Shown one piece after another: positions 25,587 to 49,218 of a stretch of 64,000 nt of DNA (within the stretch, counting starts at the first letter, position 1; each line of letters begins with the position of its first letter). The notes below the pieces were generated by a model. The model worked only from the letters and a program-made list of their open reading frames with translations. It was not told the DNA's origin and did no database searches. The stretch is from the sequence record LC788708.1. One strand, given 5' to 3'. This stretch comes from Escherichia coli phage AZ21. Both the position numbers and the translations under genes were made by a program.

Positions 25587-25784
25587 TTAGACACTTAAAA
25601 TACTTCTAATCTCTTCTATATACTTATCTACTTTTTTAGCATCTACTTTACTTAGTTTTCCTATATCAAAATCAGGATCAGTAAACATTCTAGCTATTTC
25701 TATCTCTAGAGACTTACTAATTTTCCCTGTAGTATTCCACTTAGAAATCTTACCTTTTATTTTCCAAAATTCCTTATTCATCAT
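25587..25784 (-). CDS. Hypothetical small protein
   Basis: 65-aa ORF. Confidence 0.4.
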   Translation of the reverse strand: MMNKEFWKIKGKISKWNTTGKISKSLEIEIARMFTDPDFDIGKLSKVDAKKVDKYIEEIRSILSV

Positions 25785-25854
25785 TTAATCCCGGAACATA
25801 AATCCCAACACGGTTTAATTGTTCTTTAGCTTCTTTGAGAATATCTGTAGTGTA

Positions 25855-26166
25855 CTACCAAATATCATCTTCCACCTGTAAAAGATGGGGCGAACAACCA
25901 TCATCCGGCACACGACATATGGCCAACCCACGTGGATGGAATATAGAGAAGTTTAGGGCAACAATCAAGCCCATAGCAGACAATTCATTCCAATCCAATT
26001 CCCATTCCCCTGCATATCCAGACAGGAAAACGCCAATGCAGGGATCATCTATTTGCTGCTCTGGAAAAGTGAAGGAGGCTTGTCTTACCCCCAACCAACG
26101 TTGTAGCAGCTTCTCAGCACGTTCCACTAAACTAGGGTCAATCTATCGCCAAAATACTCGTTCCAT
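25855..26166 (-). pseudogene. Amber-interrupted paralogue of the adjacent 142-aa gene
   Basis: RBS aaggagg then ATG GAA CGA GTA TTT TGG CGA TAG, continuing in frame as IDPSLVERAEKLLQRW...; downstream part aligns with residues ~30-100 of the 26176..26604 product (shared DDPCIG, MGLIVALN-type motifs). Confidence 0.5.
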
Positions 26167-26175
26167 TCTGCCTCC

Positions 26176-26604
26176 TTAAGCAGTTAAACCTGGGATGATA
26201 TACCCGAAACGTCGAAGTTTCTGAATCTCCTCATTTACTTCTTCCGGTGAGTAAGACCAACCGTAACGTTCATTAACCTGAAAACCAGGAGATTCACTAG
26301 TCTTATAGTTAACAACGAGGCGATGCTTAGCAGGCATAAACAGCTTATAGTTTAATGCAAAAACTAAGCCCATTTCATCTAACTCTTTCCAGCCAACAAT
26401 TTCTTCAAGACCCTCCTCTACCTGAACAATTAAACCAATACAGGGGGCCTCATCAATATCATCTTTAAAAGCAAAGGAGATTTCGTTATTTTCACACCAT
26501 ATTTTCAAGGAGTTAATAGCTTCATTATACAGGCTAGCTGGGAGAGTACGCCAAAAGTTAACCAAAATTGGGTTAGCTTCTTTAGAGAATACATTATTGA
26601 ACAT
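26176..26604 (-). CDS. Hypothetical protein (intact member of tandem paralogue pair)
   Basis: 142-aa ORF; paralogous to the interrupted copy downstream. Confidence 0.5.
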   Translation of the reverse strand: MFNNVFSKEANPILVNFWRTLPASLYNEAINSLKIWCENNEISFAFKDDIDEAPCIGLIVQVEEGLEEIVGWKELDEMGLVFALNYKLFMPAKHRLVVNYKTSESPGFQVNERYGWSYSPEEVNEEIQKLRRFGYIIPGLTA

Positions 26605-26606
26605 AT

Positions 26607-27113
26607 TTACACCTTAAATTGTTGTAAGGATTTACACATTTCAAGATCTGGGCTAAATTCTAGCATATAGCTAACAGCCATTAAATCTTGAAGATTTATC
26701 CCAGTCCTACCGTTGACTATAACTGTTGGATACTGATACATCATAGCACCAGCATCATCTAGCACACACCAATGTTTGAGCTTATGCTTTTCAACGAAGC
26801 GAAGAACAGAATTACCTCTAGATAGCCCACTCCCAGTAAAATCCGTTGTACCAAGAAAACGATCGATAAGGCCTAATCCGGTCATAATCTGAACGTTCTC
26901 CATCTCATTTTTGACAGAGAACCAAGATGATACTCCAACAATCATTATCGGAGAAGGACGAATAAAGTCCTGAAAAGCCTTGAGAAGCGGTTTGAAAACC
27001 CAGTCACTTCCAAAGAAAATCTTTTCATTATCAGGTGCATGATGGTGGGAGATGCTCGAATTGAGCACCCCATCAATATCTAGAAAAATAATTGGAGTAT
27101 TACTTATTTCCAT
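26607..27113 (-). CDS. HAD-superfamily phosphatase-like protein
   Basis: N-terminal IIFLDIDGVLN (HAD motif I DxDG) and C-terminal VLDDAG-type motif. Confidence 0.6.
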   Translation of the reverse strand: MEISNTPIIFLDIDGVLNSSISHHHAPDNEKIFFGSDWVFKPLLKAFQDFIRPSPIMIVGVSSWFSVKNEMENVQIMTGLGLIDRFLGTTDFTGSGLSRGNSVLRFVEKHKLKHWCVLDDAGAMMYQYPTVIVNGRTGINLQDLMAVSYMLEFSPDLEMCKSLQQFKV

Positions 27114-27309
27114 TTTTGTTCCTTTCTAAGAACGTATCATACTCAACCGTATCAACATATATAACACCATAGTCATCGGATTTATAGTCCATCTCCCACA
27201 GCTCACAGCGATAGCACCAACTACCATCTGCCCATACAAATATATCATCGGGATGTGTATAAACAGATTTAACTATGGACATATCTATTTCCCTTGCTTC
27301 TCGACACAT
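27100..27309 (-). CDS. Hypothetical protein
   Basis: 69-aa ORF overlapping neighbours at both ends. Confidence 0.4.
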   Translation of the reverse strand: MCREAREIDMSIVKSVYTHPDDIFVWADGSWCYRCELWEMDYKSDDYGVIYVDTVEYDTFLERNKNGNK

Positions 27310-28105
27310 AAGGTCTACCCTCTAAATGAGCTTCTACACGAGCAATAAAATCAGGGTCACTAAAAGCATCTACCGCACCTTTACTCCAGTAAGGGATACC
27401 GCGTTCTTCCAACTGGTACATCTCACTACGAGTCATACCTTGATAGCCAGGTTCTGCTGCGAGGGCACTATCATAGTAGTTAACAACCATAAGTTTCGCA
27501 GCAGTCAAATTAAGAACAGGAAATAATTCCCAGTAGAAGTTAATTACTTGGTTAGAGCAACCAACCACAATGATCATATCTTGACTGGTAATACCATCAA
27601 AAACATTATACATTTCTGCGTATGCAGGAGCACACTCCCCAAAGAAGATTACATTAGGTTTAACCCATTTATAATCATCTGGATCAATAGAATTGTATCC
27701 TACATCAATAATCCGTTTATTGCTACTATTGTAGCTATCAGCTACAACAACCTCTTTTAAATATCCGTGAATGTGCAGAATGTCACTATGTGGAACGCCA
27801 GCACGCTCAATAAGGTCATCAACGTTGGTAGTCAAGTTTACTACTTGACCTGGATATTGTTTATACCATTCACCAATACGCAAATGCGCAAGATTGGGTT
27901 CAACAGTTTTTAGCTCTTCACGACGCTTGTTGTAAAACATATGGGTTTTATGATAAAAATTACTACGAAAGGCATGAATATTACATACTTCTTCTAGATC
28001 ATAATCATCCCACAATGCTTTACCACTAGCAGTATCAGTACGGAAGGCTCGTACACCACTTTCAACACTCAAACCTGCACCACTAATAATAATTAATCTA
28101 CGCAT
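27269..28105 (-). CDS. Sir2 (sirtuin)-like NAD-binding protein
   Basis: GAGLSVESGVRAFR (sirtuin GAGxSxxSGIPxFR), TTNVDDL, HIHG (catalytic His), IFFGE, VVGCS; no zinc-ribbon cysteines seen. Confidence 0.65.
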   Translation of the reverse strand: MRRLIIISGAGLSVESGVRAFRTDTASGKALWDDYDLEEVCNIHAFRSNFYHKTHMFYNKRREELKTVEPNLAHLRIGEWYKQYPGQVVNLTTNVDDLIERAGVPHSDILHIHGYLKEVVVADSYNSSNKRIIDVGYNSIDPDDYKWVKPNVIFFGECAPAYAEMYNVFDGITSQDMIIVVGCSNQVINFYWELFPVLNLTAAKLMVVNYYDSALAAEPGYQGMTRSEMYQLEERGIPYWSKGAVDAFSDPDFIARVEAHLEGRPYVSRSKGNRYVHS

Positions 28106-28881: not shown

Positions 28882-30729
28882 TTATTTAGCTCGAATATCC
28901 TGATGTTTCACTCTGCCCATCACCTCGTGCTGTTTGCCGGGGTTAAATGGACGAGCACCCGGATTTCCAAGATACCCACAAACTCGACGAGTTACTTCAA
29001 GAGTCTCAGGGTCATGATTACCACAGATAGGGCACTTAAATCCATCTTCGGATGCTATTGTTTCACCTAAGAATCCACATTTACCACAAGAATCCACTGG
29101 GGTATTAATACCGAAGTAATGAACCTTACTAGCAGCATAATTAATAACCCATTCCAGTGCATCTGGGAATCGTTTCATATCCGGTAGTTCTACATAGGAA
29201 ATGCACCCACCAGAAGCAATCGGAGTAAAGTTAGATTCATAATCAAATTTCACATTGGGAGCAACTTTACGTTCTACATCAAGGTGGTGCGAGTTAGTGT
29301 AGTATCCTTTGGACAGAATATCTTCATGCTCTGGGAAATATTCACGGTCTAGACGACAAAAACGGTCGCATAGGGATTCTGATGGTGTAGCATACAGACT
29401 ATAACCTAGTTTAGTTTCTTCCTTCTTCTGATCGACTCTATCCCGCATGTACTGCAATACACGCTGAACAAACTTGATGCAGGTCTCGGACATTGTGTCT
29501 ACATCTTTGCCAAACATGAACTGTAGCATTTCATGGCAGCCAATATACCCTAGAGATACAGAAGCACGGTTATAGAAATGATCGAATACATATTCCTCAG
29601 GCCCCAAGCGTAACCCAAAGGCTCCTGACATATAGAGGATGGGTGCAGCTTTAGCTTGAATGTATTTTAAGCGATCAACTCTCCACTCCAACGCTTTTAA
29701 TGCTGTATCCACACGTAGCTCAAGCAAATCAAAGAATAGGTCAATATTTCCTTCAGCTTCGATAGCAATTCTAGGCAAGTTTACAGAAACAACACCTAAG
29801 TTATTACGACCGGCAGTTTCACCATCTTCTGTAGCAGCTAGGAATGAACGGCAGCCCATAGAAACTTTATAGTCTCCAGTAACTTCTACAACCTTGTCAT
29901 AGCTGATATAATCTGGATACATACGTTCAGCAGTACATTTCATAGCTAACTTCTTGATGTCATAATTAACATCTCCTGGTTTCATGTTAACACCATCACG
30001 AAGTACAAATACCAGTTTCGGGAAGATAGCTGTACGTTTATTGATACCTAAACCATCCATGCGTACTTTCAGTATTGCCCTCTGTACTAGACGTGCTTCC
30101 CAAGAAGTTCCTAGACCAAAACCAAAGGTAATAAATGGACTCTGACCATTAGAGTTGAACATGGTATTGATTTCATATTCTAAACCCTGACAAGCGTCAT
30201 AGACTTCTTTTTCAGTCATCTCCGTAGCCATTACGGATGCTTTGGCCTCATCCTTAGTCCAACGTTTTGCAAACGCATGATTTTTATCATAGGATTTACG
30301 AACATAAGGGGCTAATACTTCATCAAGGCGATCTACAGAAGTACCACCATACTGATGGGAGCTAACCTGAGTGATAATCTGAGCAGTAATAGCCGCCGCA
30401 GTAGTAATAGAGTTTGGAGTGCTAATTTCAGCATTACCAACCTTCATACCATTCTTCAACATATCTTCCAGAGCTACCAGACAACAGTTAGTCATGCCTA
30501 ATGCAGCATAATCAGCATCATGGAAATGAATATCCCCAATCATATGAGCATTTCGAATCTGAATTGGCATTTCTTCTAGAATCAGATACTTACTCAATTC
30601 ACCTGCAAGCATATCCCTTTGTGTAGGGAAACGTTCTGAGGGTTTATTAGCATTATTAAACAGCAGCTCTTCATCTGCTGACCCTTCGATAATCTCTTTG
30701 CAGTTTCTAATCAATTCATCTTTGTTCAT
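28882..30729 (-). CDS. nrdD: Anaerobic ribonucleoside-triphosphate reductase (class III RNR)
   Basis: 615 aa; C-terminal zinc site CGKCGF...CPICG and glycyl-radical motif RRVCGYLG. Confidence 0.9.
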   Translation of the reverse strand: MNKDELIRNCKEIIEGSADEELLFNNANKPSERFPTQRDMLAGELSKYLILEEMPIQIRNAHMIGDIHFHDADYAALGMTNCCLVALEDMLKNGMKVGNAEISTPNSITTAAAITAQIITQVSSHQYGGTSVDRLDEVLAPYVRKSYDKNHAFAKRWTKDEAKASVMATEMTEKEVYDACQGLEYEINTMFNSNGQSPFITFGFGLGTSWEARLVQRAILKVRMDGLGINKRTAIFPKLVFVLRDGVNMKPGDVNYDIKKLAMKCTAERMYPDYISYDKVVEVTGDYKVSMGCRSFLAATEDGETAGRNNLGVVSVNLPRIAIEAEGNIDLFFDLLELRVDTALKALEWRVDRLKYIQAKAAPILYMSGAFGLRLGPEEYVFDHFYNRASVSLGYIGCHEMLQFMFGKDVDTMSETCIKFVQRVLQYMRDRVDQKKEETKLGYSLYATPSESLCDRFCRLDREYFPEHEDILSKGYYTNSHHLDVERKVAPNVKFDYESNFTPIASGGCISYVELPDMKRFPDALEWVINYAASKVHYFGINTPVDSCGKCGFLGETIASEDGFKCPICGNHDPETLEVTRRVCGYLGNPGARPFNPGKQHEVMGRVKHQDIRAK

Positions 30730-31387
30730 TAATTATTTCCTCAATAAACCTTGCTACTACTTCTGGCTCAATACTAAAAAATTCTGTAGCACCATCAAAA
30801 TCTTTATATTGACAATTATATTCCTTAAAATGTAGATGGGTTTCTCTCTCAATACGCATAGCTTTTGATCTATCTGAAAAGCTATACTCCTTAAATATTT
30901 TTAAATCATGTATGTTAGAAGAAGTTTTAATATCTCTGAGTCTATCTTTAGTTCTGCTAGACACACCTATTTTGGTCCCCACATTACTTACTAAAATATA
31001 TACGTTAGTAGGATAATTATCCTTTTCTAATAAACATATAGGACAACCAGAATTATGATTCCTAACACTATCGAGTGTAGACTCCCACCTATGATCATTC
31101 TCACAGCTAAACATGATTTTACTCTTGGAATTGATGTATTTACCTTCCATCTTTATTCCACGGGCAGCTAACGACTCATTTACTTCTTTAAGATCTAAAG
31201 TACGGCTAGCACAATAAGGGCAGCCCCTACCACCTTTTACGTTATCTACTCTAGCCTCCCAACTATGTCCATTAGAGCACTTAAATATAGCATTGGATTT
31301 AGCTGATATATACGTGCTTAGCATAACTATTCCTCTAGGAGCAAGTGCTAAGTTCACATCTTCTGTAGTTATTTTCTTTCTTACCAT
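30716..31387 (-). CDS. T5orf172 / GIY-YIG-like domain protein with tandem zinc-ribbon repeats (putative homing endonuclease)
   Basis: Two repeats FKCSNGHSWEARVDNVKGGRGCPYCA and FSCENDHRWESTLDSVRNHNSGCPICL; C-terminal NVYILVSNVGTKIGVSS...GATEFF; start overlaps nrdD by 14 nt. Confidence 0.6.
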   Translation of the reverse strand: MVRKKITTEDVNLALAPRGIVMLSTYISAKSNAIFKCSNGHSWEARVDNVKGGRGCPYCASRTLDLKEVNESLAARGIKMEGKYINSKSKIMFSCENDHRWESTLDSVRNHNSGCPICLLEKDNYPTNVYILVSNVGTKIGVSSRTKDRLRDIKTSSNIHDLKIFKEYSFSDRSKAMRIERETHLHFKEYNCQYKDFDGATEFFSIEPEVVARFIEEIINEQR

Positions 31388-31609
31388 TAAATTCTCCTTA
31401 ATTCACATATTATACATAATTCCACCCCATACGTCAACTACATTTTTCTAATACTATTTGACTTTTGATTTTTATCAATTTTTATTGACGTTATACAGCA
31501 TAATATCTTTACGTATAAATAAATGAATATCTAGTATCATATTTCTACCTTTATAAGCAAGTAAACTTTTTATTTAAAAGCAATATCATAGGTTTATTTA
31601 AAATTATAC

Positions 31610-40279: not shown

Positions 40280-40516
40280 ATGCGTAATTTTGTAGCAAAG
40301 AATGATTTTAACCGTGCTAGCACTCATAAGTCCGCTAGAGATTATACACGACTTTCTAGTCATGAGGTAATGGATACCTGTTATGAAGAGCTGGAAGGTA
40401 GCTGGAATGAGTGTCCCGACTTCTCTATGGAAGAGAACTGGGATGTCAGTGAGGATATGCTTCCTGGTTTTAAAGACCCCAAGAAGTGGGAGTCTATTAA
40501 AGAGACAGCTCTTTAA
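40280..40516 (+). CDS. Hypothetical acidic protein
   Basis: 78-aa ORF. Confidence 0.45.
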   Translation: MRNFVAKNDFNRASTHKSARDYTRLSSHEVMDTCYEELEGSWNECPDFSMEENWDVSEDMLPGFKDPKKWESIKETAL

Positions 40517-44193: not shown

Positions 44194-44265
44194 GCCGTCC
44201 TAGTATAATTGGTATTATCAAGCCGTAACTGGTGGAAGATGTAGGTTCGAATCCTACGGTCGGTA
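44194..44265 (+). tRNA. tRNA-like gene with canonical T-arm but irregular acceptor/anticodon arms (possible degenerate tRNA)
   Basis: T-arm gtagg-ttcgaat-cctac and D-loop aattgg are present; acceptor gccgtcc/ggtcggt has one U-U mismatch; best anticodon stem has only 4 bp (loop gccgtaa); no encoded CCA. Confidence 0.4.
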
Positions 44266-44767: not shown

Positions 44768-44842
44768 CGGGGTGTAGTCTAAGGGAGAGGCAGGAGTCTT
44801 CTAAATTCCTTTATGCAGGTTCGAATCCTGTCACCTCGGCCA
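44768..44842 (+). tRNA. tRNA-Arg (anticodon UCU)
   Basis: Acceptor cggggtg/cacctcg, D-stem gtct/aggc, anticodon stem ggagt/attcc with loop cTTCTAa, T-arm gcagg-ttcgaat-cctgt, discriminator g, encoded CCA. Confidence 0.8.
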
Positions 44843-44876
44843 ATTTTATTAACTGTAACTAAAACAAAGGAAACAT

Positions 44877-45824
44877 ATGTTTAATACTAAAAATATGAAA
44901 GAATTGACTTCTGAGCAGAAAGTAATTCGTACTATTAAACGTTGGGGTATTGGTGCTGTAGTTGGTTTAGCAGGTTTAATCCTAGCTTTTAATTCGTATA
45001 CCATTGTTTCTGATGGTACGGTTAAAACCCAAACATTCCTGGGTAAAGTAGACCCTAATCCAGTATTACCTGGTTTCCATCTTGTAAACCCGTTTGCATC
45101 TTTCGATACTTTTAGTACGAAAGATATTTCTATGAAACTGGATAAACTTCAGGTTCCTAGCCAGGATAAGTTTAAGTCTACAGTTGACATTACCGTTATG
45201 TTGCAGTTTGATGGTGCTAAAGCTCCTATTAACCGTGTTAACGCAGGTACTCAGGATCAAGCTCTGAACAAGTACGTTGAAGAGAAGATGCTGTCTACGA
45301 TTCGTGAGTTTGGTAAGTCTGTACCAAAAGCACAAGATCTGTTCGACGCTAAGATTCAGGCTCAACTGCAAACCGCTATTCAGCAAGAAGTAGAAGAGTA
45401 TGCGCGTCCTTATGGCTACACCGTTAAGCAAGTATTCCTTCAGGATATTACTCTGCCACCGGTAATCATGGAACAGGTACAAAACACCAAAGTTCGTGAA
45501 GAACAAGTTAACGCTGCAAAAGCTGAACTAGCTCGTGTTGAACAAGAAGCACAGCAGAAAGTTAAGCAAGCTGAGGCTGATCGTTCTGCTCGTGAAAATA
45601 TGGCAGTAGCTAACGAACGTGACGCAGATGCTAAACTGTATGCGGCTAAGAAAGAAGCTGAAGCTAACACCGCTCTGCAGCGTACCATCACTCCAGAGAT
45701 GATTCGCTGGAAACAGCTGGAAGTTGATATGAAACGCGCTGAAAAATATCAGGGTGGCGTTCCTCAGACTGTTGTAGGTACTGGTTATGATGGCCAGATG
45801 ATTATGGATATGCGTAATAAGTAA
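44877..45824 (+). CDS. SPFH/band-7 (prohibitin/HflC-like) membrane protein
   Basis: 315 aa; N-terminal TM helix IGAVVGLAGLILAF, SPFH core, C-terminal coiled-coil. Confidence 0.65.
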   Translation: MFNTKNMKELTSEQKVIRTIKRWGIGAVVGLAGLILAFNSYTIVSDGTVKTQTFLGKVDPNPVLPGFHLVNPFASFDTFSTKDISMKLDKLQVPSQDKFKSTVDITVMLQFDGAKAPINRVNAGTQDQALNKYVEEKMLSTIREFGKSVPKAQDLFDAKIQAQLQTAIQQEVEEYARPYGYTVKQVFLQDITLPPVIMEQVQNTKVREEQVNAAKAELARVEQEAQQKVKQAEADRSARENMAVANERDADAKLYAAKKEAEANTALQRTITPEMIRWKQLEVDMKRAEKYQGGVPQTVVGTGYDGQMIMDMRNK

Positions 45825-45847
45825 TAGTTACACGTAATCTTCGAAAC

Positions 45848-45882
45848 AAGCCCGCGTTTCCTCCGAGAGCGCGGGCTTTTCT
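45848..45882 (+). terminator. Rho-independent terminator
   Basis: aagcccgcg-loop-cgcgggctt followed by ttctg. Confidence 0.7.
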
Positions 45883-46027
45883 GTATTTAAGGCAAAAGAA
45901 AAGCCCATAAGTTATTCAACTAAGGTCTTTAGTACTTAATTCTTTAGAATCATATACTATTATTGCAGCAACAACGTGCTACCACTAAATGCCCTACGAT
46001 TTTCCTCTAAAAAGTTAAAAAATTCGA

Positions 46028-46056
46028 TTGCTTGAATGCTAAATTCTCTGTATAAT
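46028..46056 (+). promoter_or_regulatory. Sigma70-type early promoter
   Basis: ttgctt-17 nt-tataat-atatttataaatttgagagagg. Confidence 0.7.
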
Positions 46057-46086
46057 ATATTTATAAATTTGAGAGAGGAATCAAAT

Positions 46087-46383
46087 ATGAAACGCATTGT
46101 ACTTGCATTGACTCTAGTATCTACTTCTGTATTTGCTGCTCCACAACAGGAACTTTGTCAAGTTCAAGTTTGTAATAAGCTAGAACGATTTACTTTGGAT
46201 ATTTGGTCACACATTAAAGATAATATGGGTGAGCAATGTTTTGATATTGTTCTGCCAAAAGAACAAGCTGTTCCTGGTGCTGTTCTCAGCTCAGAATCAC
46301 GTTGGTGGCAAGGTTCTTCTATCAATCCAACTAAGAAGTCAGTGACACGTATCAAACAAGTGTATCAGTGCAGTGTTCAGTAA
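46087..46383 (+). CDS. Small secreted Cys-containing protein
   Basis: Signal peptide MKRIVLALTLVSTSVFAAPQ; 98 aa; start at ATG with RBS gagagagg. Confidence 0.5.
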   Translation: MKRIVLALTLVSTSVFAAPQQELCQVQVCNKLERFTLDIWSHIKDNMGEQCFDIVLPKEQAVPGAVLSSESRWWQGSSINPTKKSVTRIKQVYQCSVQ

Positions 46384-46391
46384 AATTTCAC

Positions 46392-46420
46392 TTGCTTAAT
46401 GCCGAAATTTTCTATATAAT
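46392..46420 (+). promoter_or_regulatory. Sigma70-type early promoter
   Basis: ttgctt-17 nt-tataat. Confidence 0.65.
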
Positions 46421-46451
46421 ATATTCTATAAATTATAGATAGGAGTCATAT

Positions 46452-46970
46452 ATGACTGTTGACGAGTTAAAACAACATCTTTTATCTAGGGGCTTTGATA
46501 GTGATAAGTATCACTGTTGGCTCTCTCCACATGGATGGTTAACAGTTCCACTGTATGATTTCTCTGGCATGTTACGTGGATATCAAACATATAACCCTAG
46601 TGCAGCTAAAGGTCATGGAAAATGTCCTTCTGAAGCTAAATATTTTACGCATTCTTCTACTCAATGTCTATGGGGTTTAGAAACTCTTACAGGTAATGAA
46701 GACCTAGTATTAGTTGCAGAATCTGTATTTAAAGCTGTGGCACTACACAACGCGGGATATCCCGCACTAGCAATGCTAGGATCTTCCCCTAGCAAAGCAC
46801 TGCTAAAGCAGCTAAAATTACAACCTTTTAAAGTAGTAGCCGTAGGCGATAATGATTCTGCTGGTGAGAAGTTTGCTAAAAAACTAAATGGGTTTACTTC
46901 CCTCATGGATTTAGATGAAATGAATACAGAAAACTTGAAAAATTTTCTTGCCATGAAGCTAAATTTCTAA
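46452..46970 (+). CDS. Hypothetical protein with TOPRIM-like segment
   Basis: 172 aa; LVLVAESVFKAVAL...VVAVGDNDSAGEKFAKKL resembles TOPRIM acidic motifs; the downstream tRNA promoter -35 lies within its 3' end. Confidence 0.4.
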   Translation: MTVDELKQHLLSRGFDSDKYHCWLSPHGWLTVPLYDFSGMLRGYQTYNPSAAKGHGKCPSEAKYFTHSSTQCLWGLETLTGNEDLVLVAESVFKAVALHNAGYPALAMLGSSPSKALLKQLKLQPFKVVAVGDNDSAGEKFAKKLNGFTSLMDLDEMNTENLKNFLAMKLNF

Positions 46971-46976
46971 TATAAT
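46948..46976 (+). promoter_or_regulatory. Sigma70-type promoter for tRNA-Ser/tRNA-Met pair
   Basis: ttgcca-17 nt-tataat-atattcataaattt immediately followed by the tRNA 5' end. Confidence 0.65.
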
Positions 46977-46990
46977 ATATTCATAAATTT

Positions 46991-47084
46991 GGAAGATTAA
47001 CCCTAAAGGTAAGGGAGCTGTTTGCTAAACAGCCAGTAGCTGTGGAGACACGGTGTGCCAGTTCGAATCTGGCATCTTCCTCCA
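46991..47084 (+). tRNA. tRNA-Ser (anticodon GCU), class II with long variable arm
   Basis: Acceptor ggaagat/atcttcc (7 bp), anticodon stem gctgt/acagc with loop tTGCTaa, long variable arm, T-arm gccag-ttcgaat-ctggc, encoded CCA. Confidence 0.8.
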
Positions 47085-47089
47085 AATTT

Positions 47090-47167
47090 GGTTCTCAAGC
47101 TCATTTGGTATGAGCCGTCGCCTCATAAGCGAAAGGTAGGCAGGTTCGAATCCTCCGGGAGCCACCA
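47090..47167 (+). tRNA. tRNA with CAU anticodon (Met or Ile-lysidine type)
   Basis: Acceptor ggttctc/gggagcc, D-stem gctc/gagc, anticodon loop cTCATaa, T-loop ttcgaat, encoded CCA; one non-WC pair in each of the anticodon and T stems. Confidence 0.6.
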
Positions 47168-47186
47168 AATTAAATAAGGACAACTA

Positions 47187-47375
47187 ATGGAATTATTCAT
47201 AGTTTCTATTAAATTTGCACAAGATAGAGAACATTCGGACGAGTTTAAACAAGGGTACAGACTAGTAAAGGCTACATCTGAACTACATGCTATGGACAAA
47301 GTAGTAGACTATATGTATAAAGTAGAAGACGTTTACTACGTCAATGCTTTAGAAGCCTCAAAAGTAATTAACTAG
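47187..47375 (+). CDS. Hypothetical protein
   Basis: 62-aa ORF with RBS aaggacaactaATG. Confidence 0.45.
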   Translation: MELFIVSIKFAQDREHSDEFKQGYRLVKATSELHAMDKVVDYMYKVEDVYYVNALEASKVIN

Positions 47376-47383
47376 GAGACTAT

Positions 47384-47569
47384 ATGTCCAAATTTCAAGA
47401 ACTCAAGCAAGAGCTAGAAGAGTGTGCCTGCCCAAAATGCTTCGGAGTAGGTGAGTGGAACGATGCTGAACCCGGTGATACACGGTATAATACATACGTT
47501 TGTACATATTGTAATGGTTCTGGTATTAATCCTGAATGTGGTATTTCTCTAGACATTGAGCGAGGTTAA
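47384..47569 (+). CDS. Small zinc-ribbon-like Cys-rich protein
   Basis: 61 aa; CACPKCFG ... CTYCNGSG. Confidence 0.45.
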   Translation: MSKFQELKQELEECACPKCFGVGEWNDAEPGDTRYNTYVCTYCNGSGINPECGISLDIERG

Positions 47570-47909
47570 GATGGATATTTTTACTACTCCGGCAATAAAC
47601 CTTTTAGGTGTTGGCTTGTTCCAAGCTACGGTGTATCGTACTGATGATTCTACTGATGTGGTAACGTTCATCGTACCTGAGTTCTTCCTAGAAAAGTTCT
47701 TTGAAGAGTTTGAGCAGTTCCGTGAAGAACACAATGCTCATTCCGATATGGAAGATCTAGCAGCTATGTTCCCTGCGGTTTACGGCTATATCTTTGAAGG
47801 TAATGGCCTAGATCTTAATAAATCTGAACTCGTTGAACTTAACTGGGGCATCAATTTTGAAGTTGGCTCTCCATTCCCTCGATATTTCCAGGGTTTAGAG
47901 ATTCGCTAA
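47556..47909 (+). CDS. Hypothetical acidic protein
   Basis: 117-aa ORF overlapping the upstream stop. Confidence 0.45.
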   Translation: MSEVKMDIFTTPAINLLGVGLFQATVYRTDDSTDVVTFIVPEFFLEKFFEEFEQFREEHNAHSDMEDLAAMFPAVYGYIFEGNGLDLNKSELVELNWGINFEVGSPFPRYFQGLEIR

Positions 47910-47917
47910 GATTACAT

Positions 47918-47994
47918 GGGGGTGTAATCGAATTGGCATAGGTACTGGACTTAAAATTCAGGTTTTGTGGGTTCGAATCCCACCACCCCTACCA
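47918..47994 (+). tRNA. tRNA with UAA anticodon (Leu by anticodon) but class I short variable arm
   Basis: Acceptor gggggtg/cacccct (7 bp), anticodon stem ctgga/ttcag with loop cTTAAaa, 5-nt variable loop, T-arm gtggg-ttcgaat-cccac, discriminator a, encoded CCA. Confidence 0.6.
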
Positions 47995-48009
47995 AATTAA
48001 GGAAATAAA

Positions 48010-48132
48010 ATGAAAGCTATTAAGAAAGCACTGCGTAAATTTATGTATTGTCGTTTTCATAGCATCAAGGCTTCAACTAATGGTACTACTTACGATCGCT
48101 ATGATCCTAAGTTTGGCTTACATTCTAAATAA
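48010..48132 (+). CDS. Possible small basic peptide (40 aa)
   Basis: RBS aaggaaataaaATG; below the ORF-track cutoff. Confidence 0.3.
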   Translation: MKAIKKALRKFMYCRFHSIKASTNGTTYDRYDPKFGLHSK

Positions 48133-48145
48133 CTGGAGAAAACAA

Positions 48146-48352
48146 ATGGCTAATCCTGAAATTACGGCACAACGCTTTATGCTGAAAGGAATTATTGCTG
48201 AAGCAGGCATGACAGAAGAAGTTGCAGATTTTCAAAAGCAATTCCTCAATATTCTCACTCAAGCCAAAGAGCTAGGAGAGAAAGAACATGGCGCGGCTAT
48301 TATGGCAATCACATTGGTTGGGCTTGATCTGGCTGAAGAATCAGGAGTTTAA
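48146..48352 (+). CDS. Hypothetical protein
   Basis: 68 aa from MANPEITAQ with RBS ctggagaaaacaaATG. Confidence 0.45.
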   Translation: MANPEITAQRFMLKGIIAEAGMTEEVADFQKQFLNILTQAKELGEKEHGAAIMAITLVGLDLAEESGV

Positions 48353-48382
48353 CTCCTCCAAGCAGAAATTTTAAAAATGTAC

Positions 48383-48412
48383 TTGCTTTTTGCTTAAGAT
48401 TTCTGCTATAAT
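48383..48412 (+). promoter_or_regulatory. Sigma70-type early promoter
   Basis: ttgctt-18 nt-tataat-agttatataagttgatgagagg. Confidence 0.6.
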
Positions 48413-48441
48413 AGTTATATAAGTTGATGAGAGGAATCAGA

Positions 48442-48717
48442 ATGTTAAAACGTTTTGCAGCAACTGGTATTGAAAGCTCAGTATGTAAATCCTGGGGTGG
48501 TTGGGAAGGTGAGATCGAGTGGCTTCAGTTCTACAATGTAGAACTTCTTCCAGAGATCAAAGCTCAATGTATTGAGGCTGGTATGGCTCCTGATGCTACG
48601 GCTGATGTTGAAATCAGCATGAATAAGCTAGAGGGTCGAGTAGTCACTGTTACTGATGAAGGTGAAGAGGTATTCGAACTTCCATTCACTTTGAAAGTCA
48701 CTCCTTCATTTGATTAA
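48442..48717 (+). CDS. Hypothetical acidic protein
   Basis: 91 aa from MLKRFAAT. Confidence 0.5.
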   Translation: MLKRFAATGIESSVCKSWGGWEGEIEWLQFYNVELLPEIKAQCIEAGMAPDATADVEISMNKLEGRVVTVTDEGEEVFELPFTLKVTPSFD

Positions 48718-48753
48718 CTGATACAGCACTGAGCAAGTTCTTTAAAATTTGAC

Positions 48754-48782
48754 TTGCTCAGTGCCTTAAAACTTGATATAAT
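48754..48782 (+). promoter_or_regulatory. Sigma70-type promoter upstream of tRNA-Tyr
   Basis: ttgctc-17 nt-tataat. Confidence 0.55.
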
Positions 48783-48847
48783 ATTTATCTAATTTGGAAA
48801 CATATTTAAAAGTGTTTAAATGAGAATTTTTGAATACTTCTAAATAT

Positions 48848-48935
48848 GGGCGTTTATTCCGTAAGTGGTAGCGGAGGGGATTGTAAATCCCTGGTCATTG
48901 CGACTCGAGTGGTTCGACTCCATTAACGCCCACCA
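48848..48935 (+). tRNA. tRNA-Tyr (anticodon GUA), class II
   Basis: Acceptor gggcgtt/aacgccc (7 bp), D-stem tccg/cgga, anticodon stem gggga/tccct with loop tTGTAaa, long variable arm, T-arm agtgg-ttcgact-ccatt, encoded CCA. Confidence 0.75.
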
Positions 48936-48952
48936 AATTAAAGGTAAAGGAT

Positions 48953-49144
48953 ATGTATATTGATCGGATAATTCAAGAAGCTGCAAATAGGGGTATTATA
49001 CAGTTGGGTTCACCCGCTGATATAAATAAAGATCTAATATTAGAAAGCCTCACATTTGGTACAGCTAACTTTGGTCGCGATAGTAATCGTCGATATAGCT
49101 TGAAGTTATCTGCACTATCTTTTATCAAGTATAACAAATTATAG
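48953..49144 (+). CDS. Hypothetical protein
   Basis: 63-aa ORF between two tRNAs; stop overlaps the next tRNA 5' end. Confidence 0.4.
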   Translation: MYIDRIIQEAANRGIIQLGSPADINKDLILESLTFGTANFGRDSNRRYSLKLSALSFIKYNKL

Positions 49145-49218
49145 TTAGTTGGCAGAGTGGTTATGCACCTCCTTCATACGGAGCGACTACAGTGGTTCAA
49201 CTCCACTACTAACTACCA
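49143..49218 (+). tRNA. tRNA with CAU anticodon (second copy; Met/fMet or Ile2)
   Basis: Acceptor agttagt/actaact (7 bp), anticodon stem ctcc/ggag with loop tTCATac, T-arm agtgg-ttcaact-ccact, encoded CCA. Confidence 0.7.

What the first reader, a model, noticed from the sequence alone, without database searches (positions are those of the whole stretch)
25855..26604. Tandem paralogue pair in which the second copy is interrupted by an in-frame amber codon
The intact 142-aa gene (26176..26604) is followed by a copy that starts with a good RBS and ATG (26166-26164) and reads MERVFWR-TAG-IDPSLVERAEKLLQRW... in a single frame, aligning with the first copy (shared DDPCIG, MGL(I/V)(V/F)ALN motifs). 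This is either a recently inactivated duplicate, a gene needing amber suppression (the phage carries its own tRNAs, though none in this window has a CUA anticodon), or a truncated product restarting at GTG 26127.
Basis: seen in the sequence. Interest (0 to 1): 0.5.

Follow-up and report, generated by a model that had tools for sequence, protein, structure and literature searches.

The report
Nonsense-inactivated phage gene (T5.107 pseudogene)
One of two old neighbouring paralogous genes of unknown function in this T5-like phage has been knocked out by two premature stop codons that relatives lack, which makes it an ordinary, recent, strain-specific pseudogene and not a case of special stop-codon decoding.

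Summary
The window is E. coli phage AZ23 (T5-like). The tandem pair is real. Copy 1 (26176-26604, minus strand, 142 aa) is the T5.106 ortholog and copy 2 is the T5.107 ortholog. They share 31% identity (E=4e-19), and both are DUF7415/phrog_2502. Copy 2 runs 26166-25774 (130 codons plus TAA) and carries two in-frame TAGs, at codon 8 (26145-26143) and codon 104 (25857-25855). All 36 relatives examined have an intact copy 2, with CAG/CAT at codon 8, GAG at codon 104 and dN/dS about 0.09. An independently assembled sister contig from a Salmonella Bareilly isolate, 99.6% identical to AZ23 across this locus, has the codon-8 TAG but still GAG at codon 104. So Q8* is real and inherited, and E104* is a later hit on a gene that was already dead. 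Copy 2 differs from the sister at the background rate. No CUA tRNA exists anywhere in the genome. TAG terminates 2 of 44 conserved genes. None of the other 52 genes compared is interrupted. The GTG restart site has no Shine-Dalgarno. Verdict: an ordinary, unannotated pseudogene of low interest. The family's function stays unknown: the fold has no PDB relative, and the domain is occasionally fused to nucleotide-metabolism enzymes.

The parts
26176..26604 (-). Copy 1: an intact 142-aa DUF7415 gene, ortholog of T5.106. It has no AZ23-private substitutions.
   Evidence: ORF list. Pfam DUF7415 5e-36 and phrog_2502 9.5e-62. T5 annotation. Intact in AZ23 and in all 36 relatives, with no private changes in AZ23.
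25774..26166 (-). Copy 2: the T5.107 ortholog of 130 codons plus TAA, inactivated by two in-frame TAG codons. It is left unannotated in GenBank record LC788707.1.
   Evidence: Translation. Codon alignment to Baret, HK6, EH7 and others. The depositor's annotation has a gap here. Intact in all 36 relatives.
26143..26145 (-). First amber codon, codon 8: CAG (Gln) to TAG, a C-to-T change. It is shared with the sister contig L040/L041/L044, so it is the older, inherited lesion.
25855..25857 (-). Second amber codon, codon 104: GAG (Glu) to TAG, a G-to-T change. It is private to AZ23 and lies between the family-invariant Trp103 and Tyr105.
26170..26176 (-). Strong Shine-Dalgarno AAGGAGG for copy 2. 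It is still intact, which fits a young pseudogene.
   Evidence: Sequence. Duplex energy -12.1 kcal/mol, against a mean of -2.6 at random positions.
26125..26127 (-). GTG at codon 14, the possible reinitiation codon. There is no Shine-Dalgarno upstream.
   Evidence: ORF list. Duplex energy +0.4 kcal/mol.
25587..25784 (-). Downstream 65-aa gene whose start overlaps the end of copy 2 (ATGATGAATAA). Its SD is weak, so it may lose translational coupling in AZ23. This is an inference.

Best explanation
Copy 2 is a young, lineage-specific pseudogene of the conserved T5-like early-region gene T5.107 (DUF7415).

In an ancestor shared by AZ23 and a phage found in a Salmonella Bareilly isolate assembly, a C-to-T change turned Gln8 (CAG) into TAG and ended translation after seven residues. 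The gene then drifted. In AZ23 a G-to-T change turned Glu104 (GAG) into a second TAG.

Shown: both stops are single-base derivatives of sense codons; the order of the two events; the absence of a phage suppressor tRNA; and the normal use of TAG as a terminator.

Inferred: no functional protein is made, apart from a possible trace of a 90-aa fragment by reinitiation; the gene is dispensable, perhaps because the intact paralogue T5.106 covers for it; and the 65-aa gene downstream may be expressed less.
For: Two in-frame TAGs sit in an otherwise fully conserved frame.

All 36 relatives have an intact copy 2, with CAG (CAT in phiLLS) at codon 8 and GAG at codon 104. Their dN/dS is 0.094, so the gene is functional and under constraint where it is intact.

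The sister contig is 99.6% identical to AZ23 across this locus. It has TAG at codon 8 and T107 but GAG at codon 104, and it differs from AZ23 copy 2 at only 2 nucleotides. Divergence in copy 2 is 2/393 (0.5%), which equals the background of 0.5-0.8% over about 19.6 kb. With 5.2% of possible substitutions creating a stop, one stop among two substitutions has a probability of about 0.10, which is compatible with neutral decay.

Of the 53 YJin-2024a CDSs that match the window, only this gene has premature stops. The single other flag is an intact gene with a 15-nt in-frame indel.

AZ23 has six tRNAs by ARAGORN in the window, with anticodons tct, gct, cat, taa, gta and cat, and none in the rest of the genome. 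One degenerate tRNA-like element has no CTA in its anticodon region.

TAG terminates 2 of 44 conserved genes. The sister contig comes from a natural Salmonella isolate, not a laboratory suppressor strain.
Against: The second TAG is seen only in the AZ23 record, so a base-calling error or a minority variant at that single position cannot be excluded without the reads.

Both stops are TAG. The chance of that, given two stops, is about (21/61)^2 = 0.12, which mildly fits propagation on an amber-suppressing host.

All three AZ23-lineage private changes (Q8*, E104*, P107T) are non-synonymous. That could hint at selection for loss rather than pure drift.

The genotype of the isolation host is unknown, and no paper on AZ23 was found. 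No expression data exist.
Confidence: 0.85

Rival explanations
1. Adaptive loss. T5.107 was knocked out because its product is harmful on some hosts, for example as a trigger of an abortive-infection or defence system. The second TAG was selected because the Q8* allele was leaky through reinitiation at GTG codon 14.
For: Two nonsense hits fall in one 130-codon gene while none of the other 52 compared genes has any. All three lineage-private changes are non-synonymous. The gene is strongly constrained elsewhere (dN/dS 0.09), so its loss is not trivially neutral. GTG lies 15 nt after the first stop.
Against: The counts are tiny. Once Q8* is given, a second stop among two substitutions has p of about 0.10 under neutrality, and copy 2 diverges at the background rate. 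There is no SD at the GTG. Nothing links these genes to defence: there are no PADLOC hits and no literature. The allele is rare, being absent from IMG/VR, JGI metagenomes and GTDB genomes, so there is no sign of recurrent loss. All 36 other relatives are intact.
Confidence: 0.07
2. Amber suppression or read-through. The TAGs are decoded at useful efficiency by a host suppressor tRNA (supE would restore Gln8 exactly and give E104Q) or by context-dependent read-through, so a full-length protein is still made at a low level.
For: Both stops are TAG. The first replaces CAG (Gln), the residue that supE inserts. The strong SD and the whole downstream frame are intact. The isolation host of AZ23 is unknown.
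Against: The phage has no CUA tRNA. TAG is used as a real terminator. The stops are not conserved, since relatives have sense codons, which is the opposite of programmed read-through. The Q8* allele also occurs in a phage contig from a natural Salmonella Bareilly isolate. Two tandem suppression events would multiply to a very low yield. The frame is intact simply because the lesions are young: only 2 nt have changed since the split from the sister.
Confidence: 0.05
3. Artefact. One or both TAGs are sequencing or assembly errors, or minority variants, in the deposited AZ23 consensus.
For: The second TAG (25855-25857) is seen only in this one record.
Against: The first TAG is reproduced in independent assemblies, NCBI GCA_007012165.1 and Logan SRR7439431. 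Substitution errors are rare in consensus assemblies, and the other matched genes show no frame damage. Even if the second TAG were an error, the gene would still be a pseudogene through Q8*.
Confidence: 0.03

Closest known systems
Phage T5 genes T5.106 (YP_006934.1) and T5.107 (YP_006935.1), hypothetical proteins of Pfam DUF7415 / PHROG 2502
   Same: They are direct orthologs with the same tandem order, downstream of the Sir2-like and HAD-like genes and upstream of the replication-origin-binding protein gene. The lengths match (142 and 130 aa), and copy 2 is about 90% identical at the nucleotide level.
   Different: In AZ23 the T5.107 ortholog carries two premature TAG codons. T5 and the 35 other relatives examined are intact.
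Ordinary nonsense pseudogenes of accessory genes in lytic phages
   Same: Single-base changes turn sense codons into stops in a gene that is intact and under purifying selection in relatives. The lesion is inherited within a narrow lineage, and a further lesion follows.
   Different: Nothing distinctive. The only wrinkle is that both lesions happen to be amber codons.
Stop-codon reassignment in phages (TAG read as an amino acid, as reported for crAss-like and Lak phages; recalled from my own knowledge, not tested against those genomes here)
   Same: In-frame TAG codons lie inside a conserved coding frame, in a phage that carries tRNA genes.
   Different: Only one gene is affected. There is no tRNA with a CUA anticodon. 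TAG still terminates conserved genes. Close relatives have CAG and GAG at the two sites.
Classical laboratory amber (am) mutants of T-odd and T-even phages grown on su+ hosts (own knowledge)
   Same: Sense-to-TAG point mutations, one of them the classic CAG-to-TAG change.
   Different: AZ23 is recorded as a sewage isolate. The Q8* allele is also present in a phage contig from a wild Salmonella isolate. The gene is not a known essential gene. No record of mutagenesis was found.

Membership tests
Pfam DUF7415 (PF24187) / PHROG phrog_2502 | A match to the family HMM above the curated gathering score (27 bits) | tested here: met
   Copy 1 scores 123.1 bits (5e-36). The intact ortholog of copy 2 scores 109.5 bits (8.8e-32). 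phrog_2502 matches at about 1e-61 for both.
Nonsense pseudogene | Orthologs in relatives are intact and evolve under purifying selection | tested here: met
   36 of 36 relatives are intact. dN/dS is 0.094.
Nonsense pseudogene | Premature stop(s) in the conserved frame, derived from sense codons | tested here: met
   CAG to TAG at codon 8 and GAG to TAG at codon 104.
Nonsense pseudogene | The lesion is real and heritable, not a sequencing error | tested here: met
   The codon-8 TAG is present in independent assemblies L040/L041. The codon-104 TAG is seen only in AZ23, so it is unverified.
Nonsense pseudogene | No full-length product is made | not testable with these tools
   This needs proteomics or ribosome profiling of infected cells.
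Stop-codon (TAG) reassignment | In-frame TAGs are spread over many genes of the genome | tested here: not met
   None of the other 52 CDSs with a match in the window has an in-frame stop.
Stop-codon (TAG) reassignment | A suppressor tRNA with a CUA anticodon is encoded by the phage | tested here: not met
   ARAGORN finds 6 tRNAs in the window and 0 in the rest of the genome, none with CUA. The extra Rfam tRNA-like hit has no CTA in its anticodon region.
Stop-codon (TAG) reassignment | TAG is not used as a terminator | tested here: not met
   2 of 44 conserved genes end in TAG at the same position as in the relative, with further stops shortly downstream. TAG is rare, however: 0 of 45 ORFs of 150 aa or more end in it.
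Programmed translational read-through | The stop codon is conserved across homologous genes in relatives | tested here: not met
   Relatives carry CAG/CAT and GAG at the two sites.
Recent tandem duplicate | High sequence identity between the copies, with the duplication restricted to a narrow lineage | tested here: not met
   The copies are only 31% identical, and both are present in all 36 relatives, including T5 and relatives whose copy 2 is only 69-75% identical at the nucleotide level.

The most novel reading that the evidence does not exclude
The loss of T5.107 is adaptive, not neutral. The DUF7415 protein would be sensed by, or would interfere with, a host system in some Salmonella or E. 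coli strains. The double knock-out would then mark a phage escape allele and give a first functional handle on a widespread phage domain of unknown function. That domain has no structural relative in the PDB and is occasionally fused to dNTP-metabolism enzymes.
Probability: 0.07. Interest if true: 0.5.

Novelty: new member of a known kind. Interest (0 to 1): 0.12.

Why it matters
It matters little beyond annotation.

- GenBank record LC788707.1 should carry a pseudogene feature at record positions 25846-26238, which is window 25774-26166.
- The case shows that T5.107 can be lost in nature, at least in a lineage that keeps its paralogue T5.106.
- It is also a useful negative control. In-frame ambers in a tRNA-carrying phage do not by themselves indicate recoding.
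- The only open biological question is what DUF7415 proteins do. They are strongly conserved (dN/dS about 0.09) and predicted with confidence, yet their fold has no relative among solved structures.

Tried and rejected
- **Genome-wide TAG recoding.** Rejected. No other gene is interrupted, TAG is used as a terminator, and there is no CUA tRNA.
- **Other carriers of the allele.** Exact-pattern scans for the TAG-bearing sequences in IMG/VR (both TAGs), and for the codon-8 TAG in JGI metagenomes and GTDB genomes, found nothing. An exact look-up of the 90-aa inter-TAG ORF product found nothing. An exact look-up of the neighbouring HAD-like protein found nothing.
- **Literature.** There are no papers on AZ23, KS_S14, LC788707, DUF7415 or T5.106/T5.107. 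The Azam et al. 2024 paper on T5-like phage tRNAs (PMC11555353) does not mention AZ23. The sibling record LC788708 could not be retrieved.
- **Internal repeat.** Pfam reports two DUF7415 stretches per protein, but BLASTP of the N-terminal half against the C-terminal half is not significant (E = 8.8).
- **Second suspected disrupted gene (window 40280-40516).** This was an artefact of a gapped alignment. The gene is intact and has a 15-nt in-frame variable segment.
- **"Disrupted" flags.** My counter over-called 10 copy-2 and 4 copy-1 rows. Apart from AZ23's copy 2, they are a terminator one codon earlier (129 versus 130 aa) or in-frame indels in divergent relatives, not real disruptions.

Full report
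**Identity of the window.** The region matches Escherichia coli phage AZ23 (LC788707.1; Tequintavirus, Demerecviridae; sewage, Shinjuku, Japan) at 100% identity. Window coordinate equals record coordinate minus 72. The genes under study lie on the minus strand in the early region, between the Sir2-like and HAD-like genes and the replication-origin-binding protein gene.

**Checking the observation.** Copy 1 is an intact 142-aa ORF at 26176-26604. Nine bases after its TAA, behind a strong AAGGAGG Shine-Dalgarno (-12.1 kcal/mol pairing with the anti-SD, against a mean of -2.6 at random positions), an ATG at 26166 opens a frame. That frame reads MERVFWR-TAG-IDPSLVERAEKLLQRW...LLQVEDDIW-TAG-YTTDILKEAKEQLNRVGIYVPGLNDE-TAA.

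In fact the 26 residues after it align with the C-terminus of copy 1 (GWSYSPEEVNEEIQKLRRFGYIIPGL) and with every ortholog. The gene therefore spans 25774-26166 and contains two in-frame amber codons, at codons 8 and 104.

The paralogy claim holds formally. BLASTP of copy 1 against an intact copy-2 ortholog gives E=4e-19 and 31% identity over 124 residues. Both match phrog_2502 (about 1e-61) and Pfam DUF7415, far above the gathering score.

**Comparison with relatives.** The depositors left the copy-2 slot unannotated. In Baret, HK6, EH7, phiLLS, Kenya-K16, KS_S14, chee24, YJin-2024a and T5, the same slot holds an annotated CDS of 390-393 nt. In T5 the two genes are T5.106 and T5.107.

I examined 36 relatives, 8 GenBank records and 28 IMG/VR contigs. 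Copy 2 is intact in all of them. Codon 8 is CAG (Gln), or CAT (His) in phiLLS, and codon 104 is GAG (Glu). Each AZ23 stop is therefore a single-base change from a sense codon: C to T for Q8* and G to T for E104*.

Among the intact sequences dN/dS is 0.094 for copy 2 and 0.081 for copy 1. Both are real genes under strong constraint. The duplication is ancient, since both copies occur in all relatives, including ones whose copy 2 is only 69-75% identical at the nucleotide level. It is not a recent duplicate.

**Order and reality of the two mutations.** I looked up contigs that encode exactly the AZ23 copy-1 protein. This found a 62.5-kb contig in NCBI assembly GCA_007012165.1, a Salmonella enterica serovar Bareilly isolate (protein EBS4928345.1). 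It also found a Logan assembly of SRR7439431, which may be the same sample.

Over 3.4 kb the contig is 99.62% identical to AZ23. Its copy 2 reads MERVFWR-TAG-... but has GAG (Glu) at codon 104, and it shares the otherwise unique Thr107. It differs from AZ23 copy 2 at only two nucleotides: a synonymous site in codon 41 and the first base of codon 104.

Three things follow:
- The codon-8 TAG is not a sequencing error.
- Q8* arose in a common ancestor and has persisted in nature.
- E104* is a later, AZ23-private hit on a gene that was already inactivated.

Over about 19.6 kb the two phages differ by 0.5-0.8%, rising to 2.2% in a mosaic patch in nrdD. Copy 2 differs at 2 of 393 positions (0.5%), which is the background rate. 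Of all possible single-base substitutions in the gene, 5.2% create a stop and 1.8% create TAG. One stop among two substitutions therefore has a probability of about 0.10. This is unremarkable and compatible with neutral decay.

**Is TAG decoded?**
- ARAGORN finds six tRNAs in the window (Arg-tct, Ser-gct, Met-cat twice, Leu-taa, Tyr-gta) and none in the remaining 44 kb of the genome.
- Rfam adds one weak tRNA-like element at 44194-44265. Its anticodon arm is poorly paired and contains no CTA.
- I projected the 60 complete annotated CDSs of the roughly 97%-identical phage YJin-2024a onto the window. 53 gave a match, and only this gene has premature stops. The one other flag was a gapped-alignment artefact in an intact gene.
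- TAG is the real terminator of 2 of 44 fully aligned conserved genes, with further stops shortly downstream. It is rare overall: 0 of 45 ORFs of 150 aa or more end in it.
- The stops are not conserved in relatives, which is the opposite of what programmed read-through predicts.
- The Q8* allele also sits in a phage contig from a natural Salmonella isolate, which argues against dependence on a laboratory suppressor strain.

Host-encoded suppression in the unknown isolation host of AZ23 cannot be formally excluded.

**Restart at GTG 26127.** The GTG (codon 14) lies 15 nt after the first stop but has no Shine-Dalgarno (+0.4 kcal/mol). Only weak termination-reinitiation is conceivable. In AZ23 the product would be the 90-aa fragment listed. 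It would lack Trp6 and, because of the second TAG, five of the 14 family-invariant positions: Tyr105, Leu117, Gly121, Gly126 and Leu127. It would also lack the predicted C-terminal helix. A functional product is unlikely.

A full HMM search of 1.84 billion representatives found 148 relatives. The conserved core (profile positions about 55-110) occurs as small standalone proteins and also inside larger ones. A few of the larger proteins fuse it to dATP/dGTP pyrophosphohydrolase (PF04447) or thymidylate kinase (PF02223). Together with the neighbourhood of nrd, thyA, frd, Sir2-like and HAD-like genes, this weakly suggests an accessory role around nucleotide metabolism. That is inference only.

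**Verdict.** The best explanation is an ordinary, recent, lineage-specific pseudogene of T5.107, made by an inherited Q8* mutation followed by an AZ23-private E104* mutation (confidence 0.85). The rivals are minor: adaptive loss (0.07), suppression or read-through (0.05) and artefact (0.03). The allele is rare. It is absent from IMG/VR, JGI metagenomes and GTDB representative genomes, and no other phage record in the collection is 99% or more identical to AZ23 in this gene. Interest is low. The practical outcome is an annotation correction and evidence that T5.107 is dispensable in at least one natural lineage that keeps T5.106.

Noticed in passing
window 44194-44265 (+): A tRNA-like element scores 35.5 bits with Rfam RF00005, above the gathering score, but ARAGORN does not call it. 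The acceptor and T arms are good. The anticodon arm is poorly paired and has no canonical loop. It is probably a decayed tRNA gene.
   Followed up: partly
window 44768-49218, and the whole AZ23 genome (L004): ARAGORN finds only six tRNA genes in the entire 104-kb genome. From my own knowledge, T5 itself is credited with more than 20. AZ23 may therefore have a reduced tRNA-rich region, which is relevant to the tRNA-based defence evasion described for T5-like phages in PMC11555353. It does keep a tRNA-Tyr (48848-48935).
   Followed up: no
window 30712-31520, with adjacent nrdD at 28882-30729: AZ23 has an insertion of about 800 nt that the 99.5%-identical sister contig L044 lacks. It corresponds to the CDS annotated 'putative endonuclease' in YJin-2024a, at window 30716-31387. 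The adjoining nrdD is 2.2% diverged, against 0.5-0.8% elsewhere. This looks like a conversion tract associated with a homing endonuclease.
   Followed up: partly
window 26607-27113 (-): This ortholog of T5.105 is labelled 'Sir2 (NAD-dependent deacetylase)' in RefSeq records. It starts with the HAD motif DIDGVLN, and the Pfam hit on record is HAD_SAK_2 (PF18143). The real Sir2-like gene is the 278-aa ORF at 27269-28105. This looks like a propagated mis-annotation.
   Followed up: partly
orthologs of window 25774-26604 in other GenBank records: Several phage records name the DUF7415 genes 'exonuclease' or 'tail tube protein'. Pfam, PHROGs, the PDB searches and the structure model give no support for either name.
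   Followed up: partly
window 25587-25784 (-): A 65-aa gene starts inside the last codons of copy 2 (ATGATGAATAA) and has only a weak SD (-4.1 kcal/mol). It is present in AZ23, Baret, HK6, KS_S14 and the sister contig. It is absent in T5, EH7, phiLLS and chee24, and in T5 a terminator follows T5.107. Early termination in copy 2 may reduce its expression in AZ23.
   Followed up: no
window 40280-40516 (+): This small 78-aa gene has a hypervariable central segment and a 15-nt in-frame length difference from YJin-2024a, flanked by near-identical sequence.
   Followed up: partly
proteins P0149, P0154 and P0084 (from the profile search): The DUF7415 core module is fused to dATP/dGTP pyrophosphohydrolase (PF04447) in two proteins and to thymidylate kinase (PF02223) in one. 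This is the only functional hint for the family.
   Followed up: partly
NCBI protein BEU76086.1 (record not retrievable here): An identical copy-1 protein is registered under an accession that falls just after AZ23's protein range. This suggests a sibling phage from the same submission. The state of its copy 2 would help date the two nonsense mutations.
   Followed up: partly
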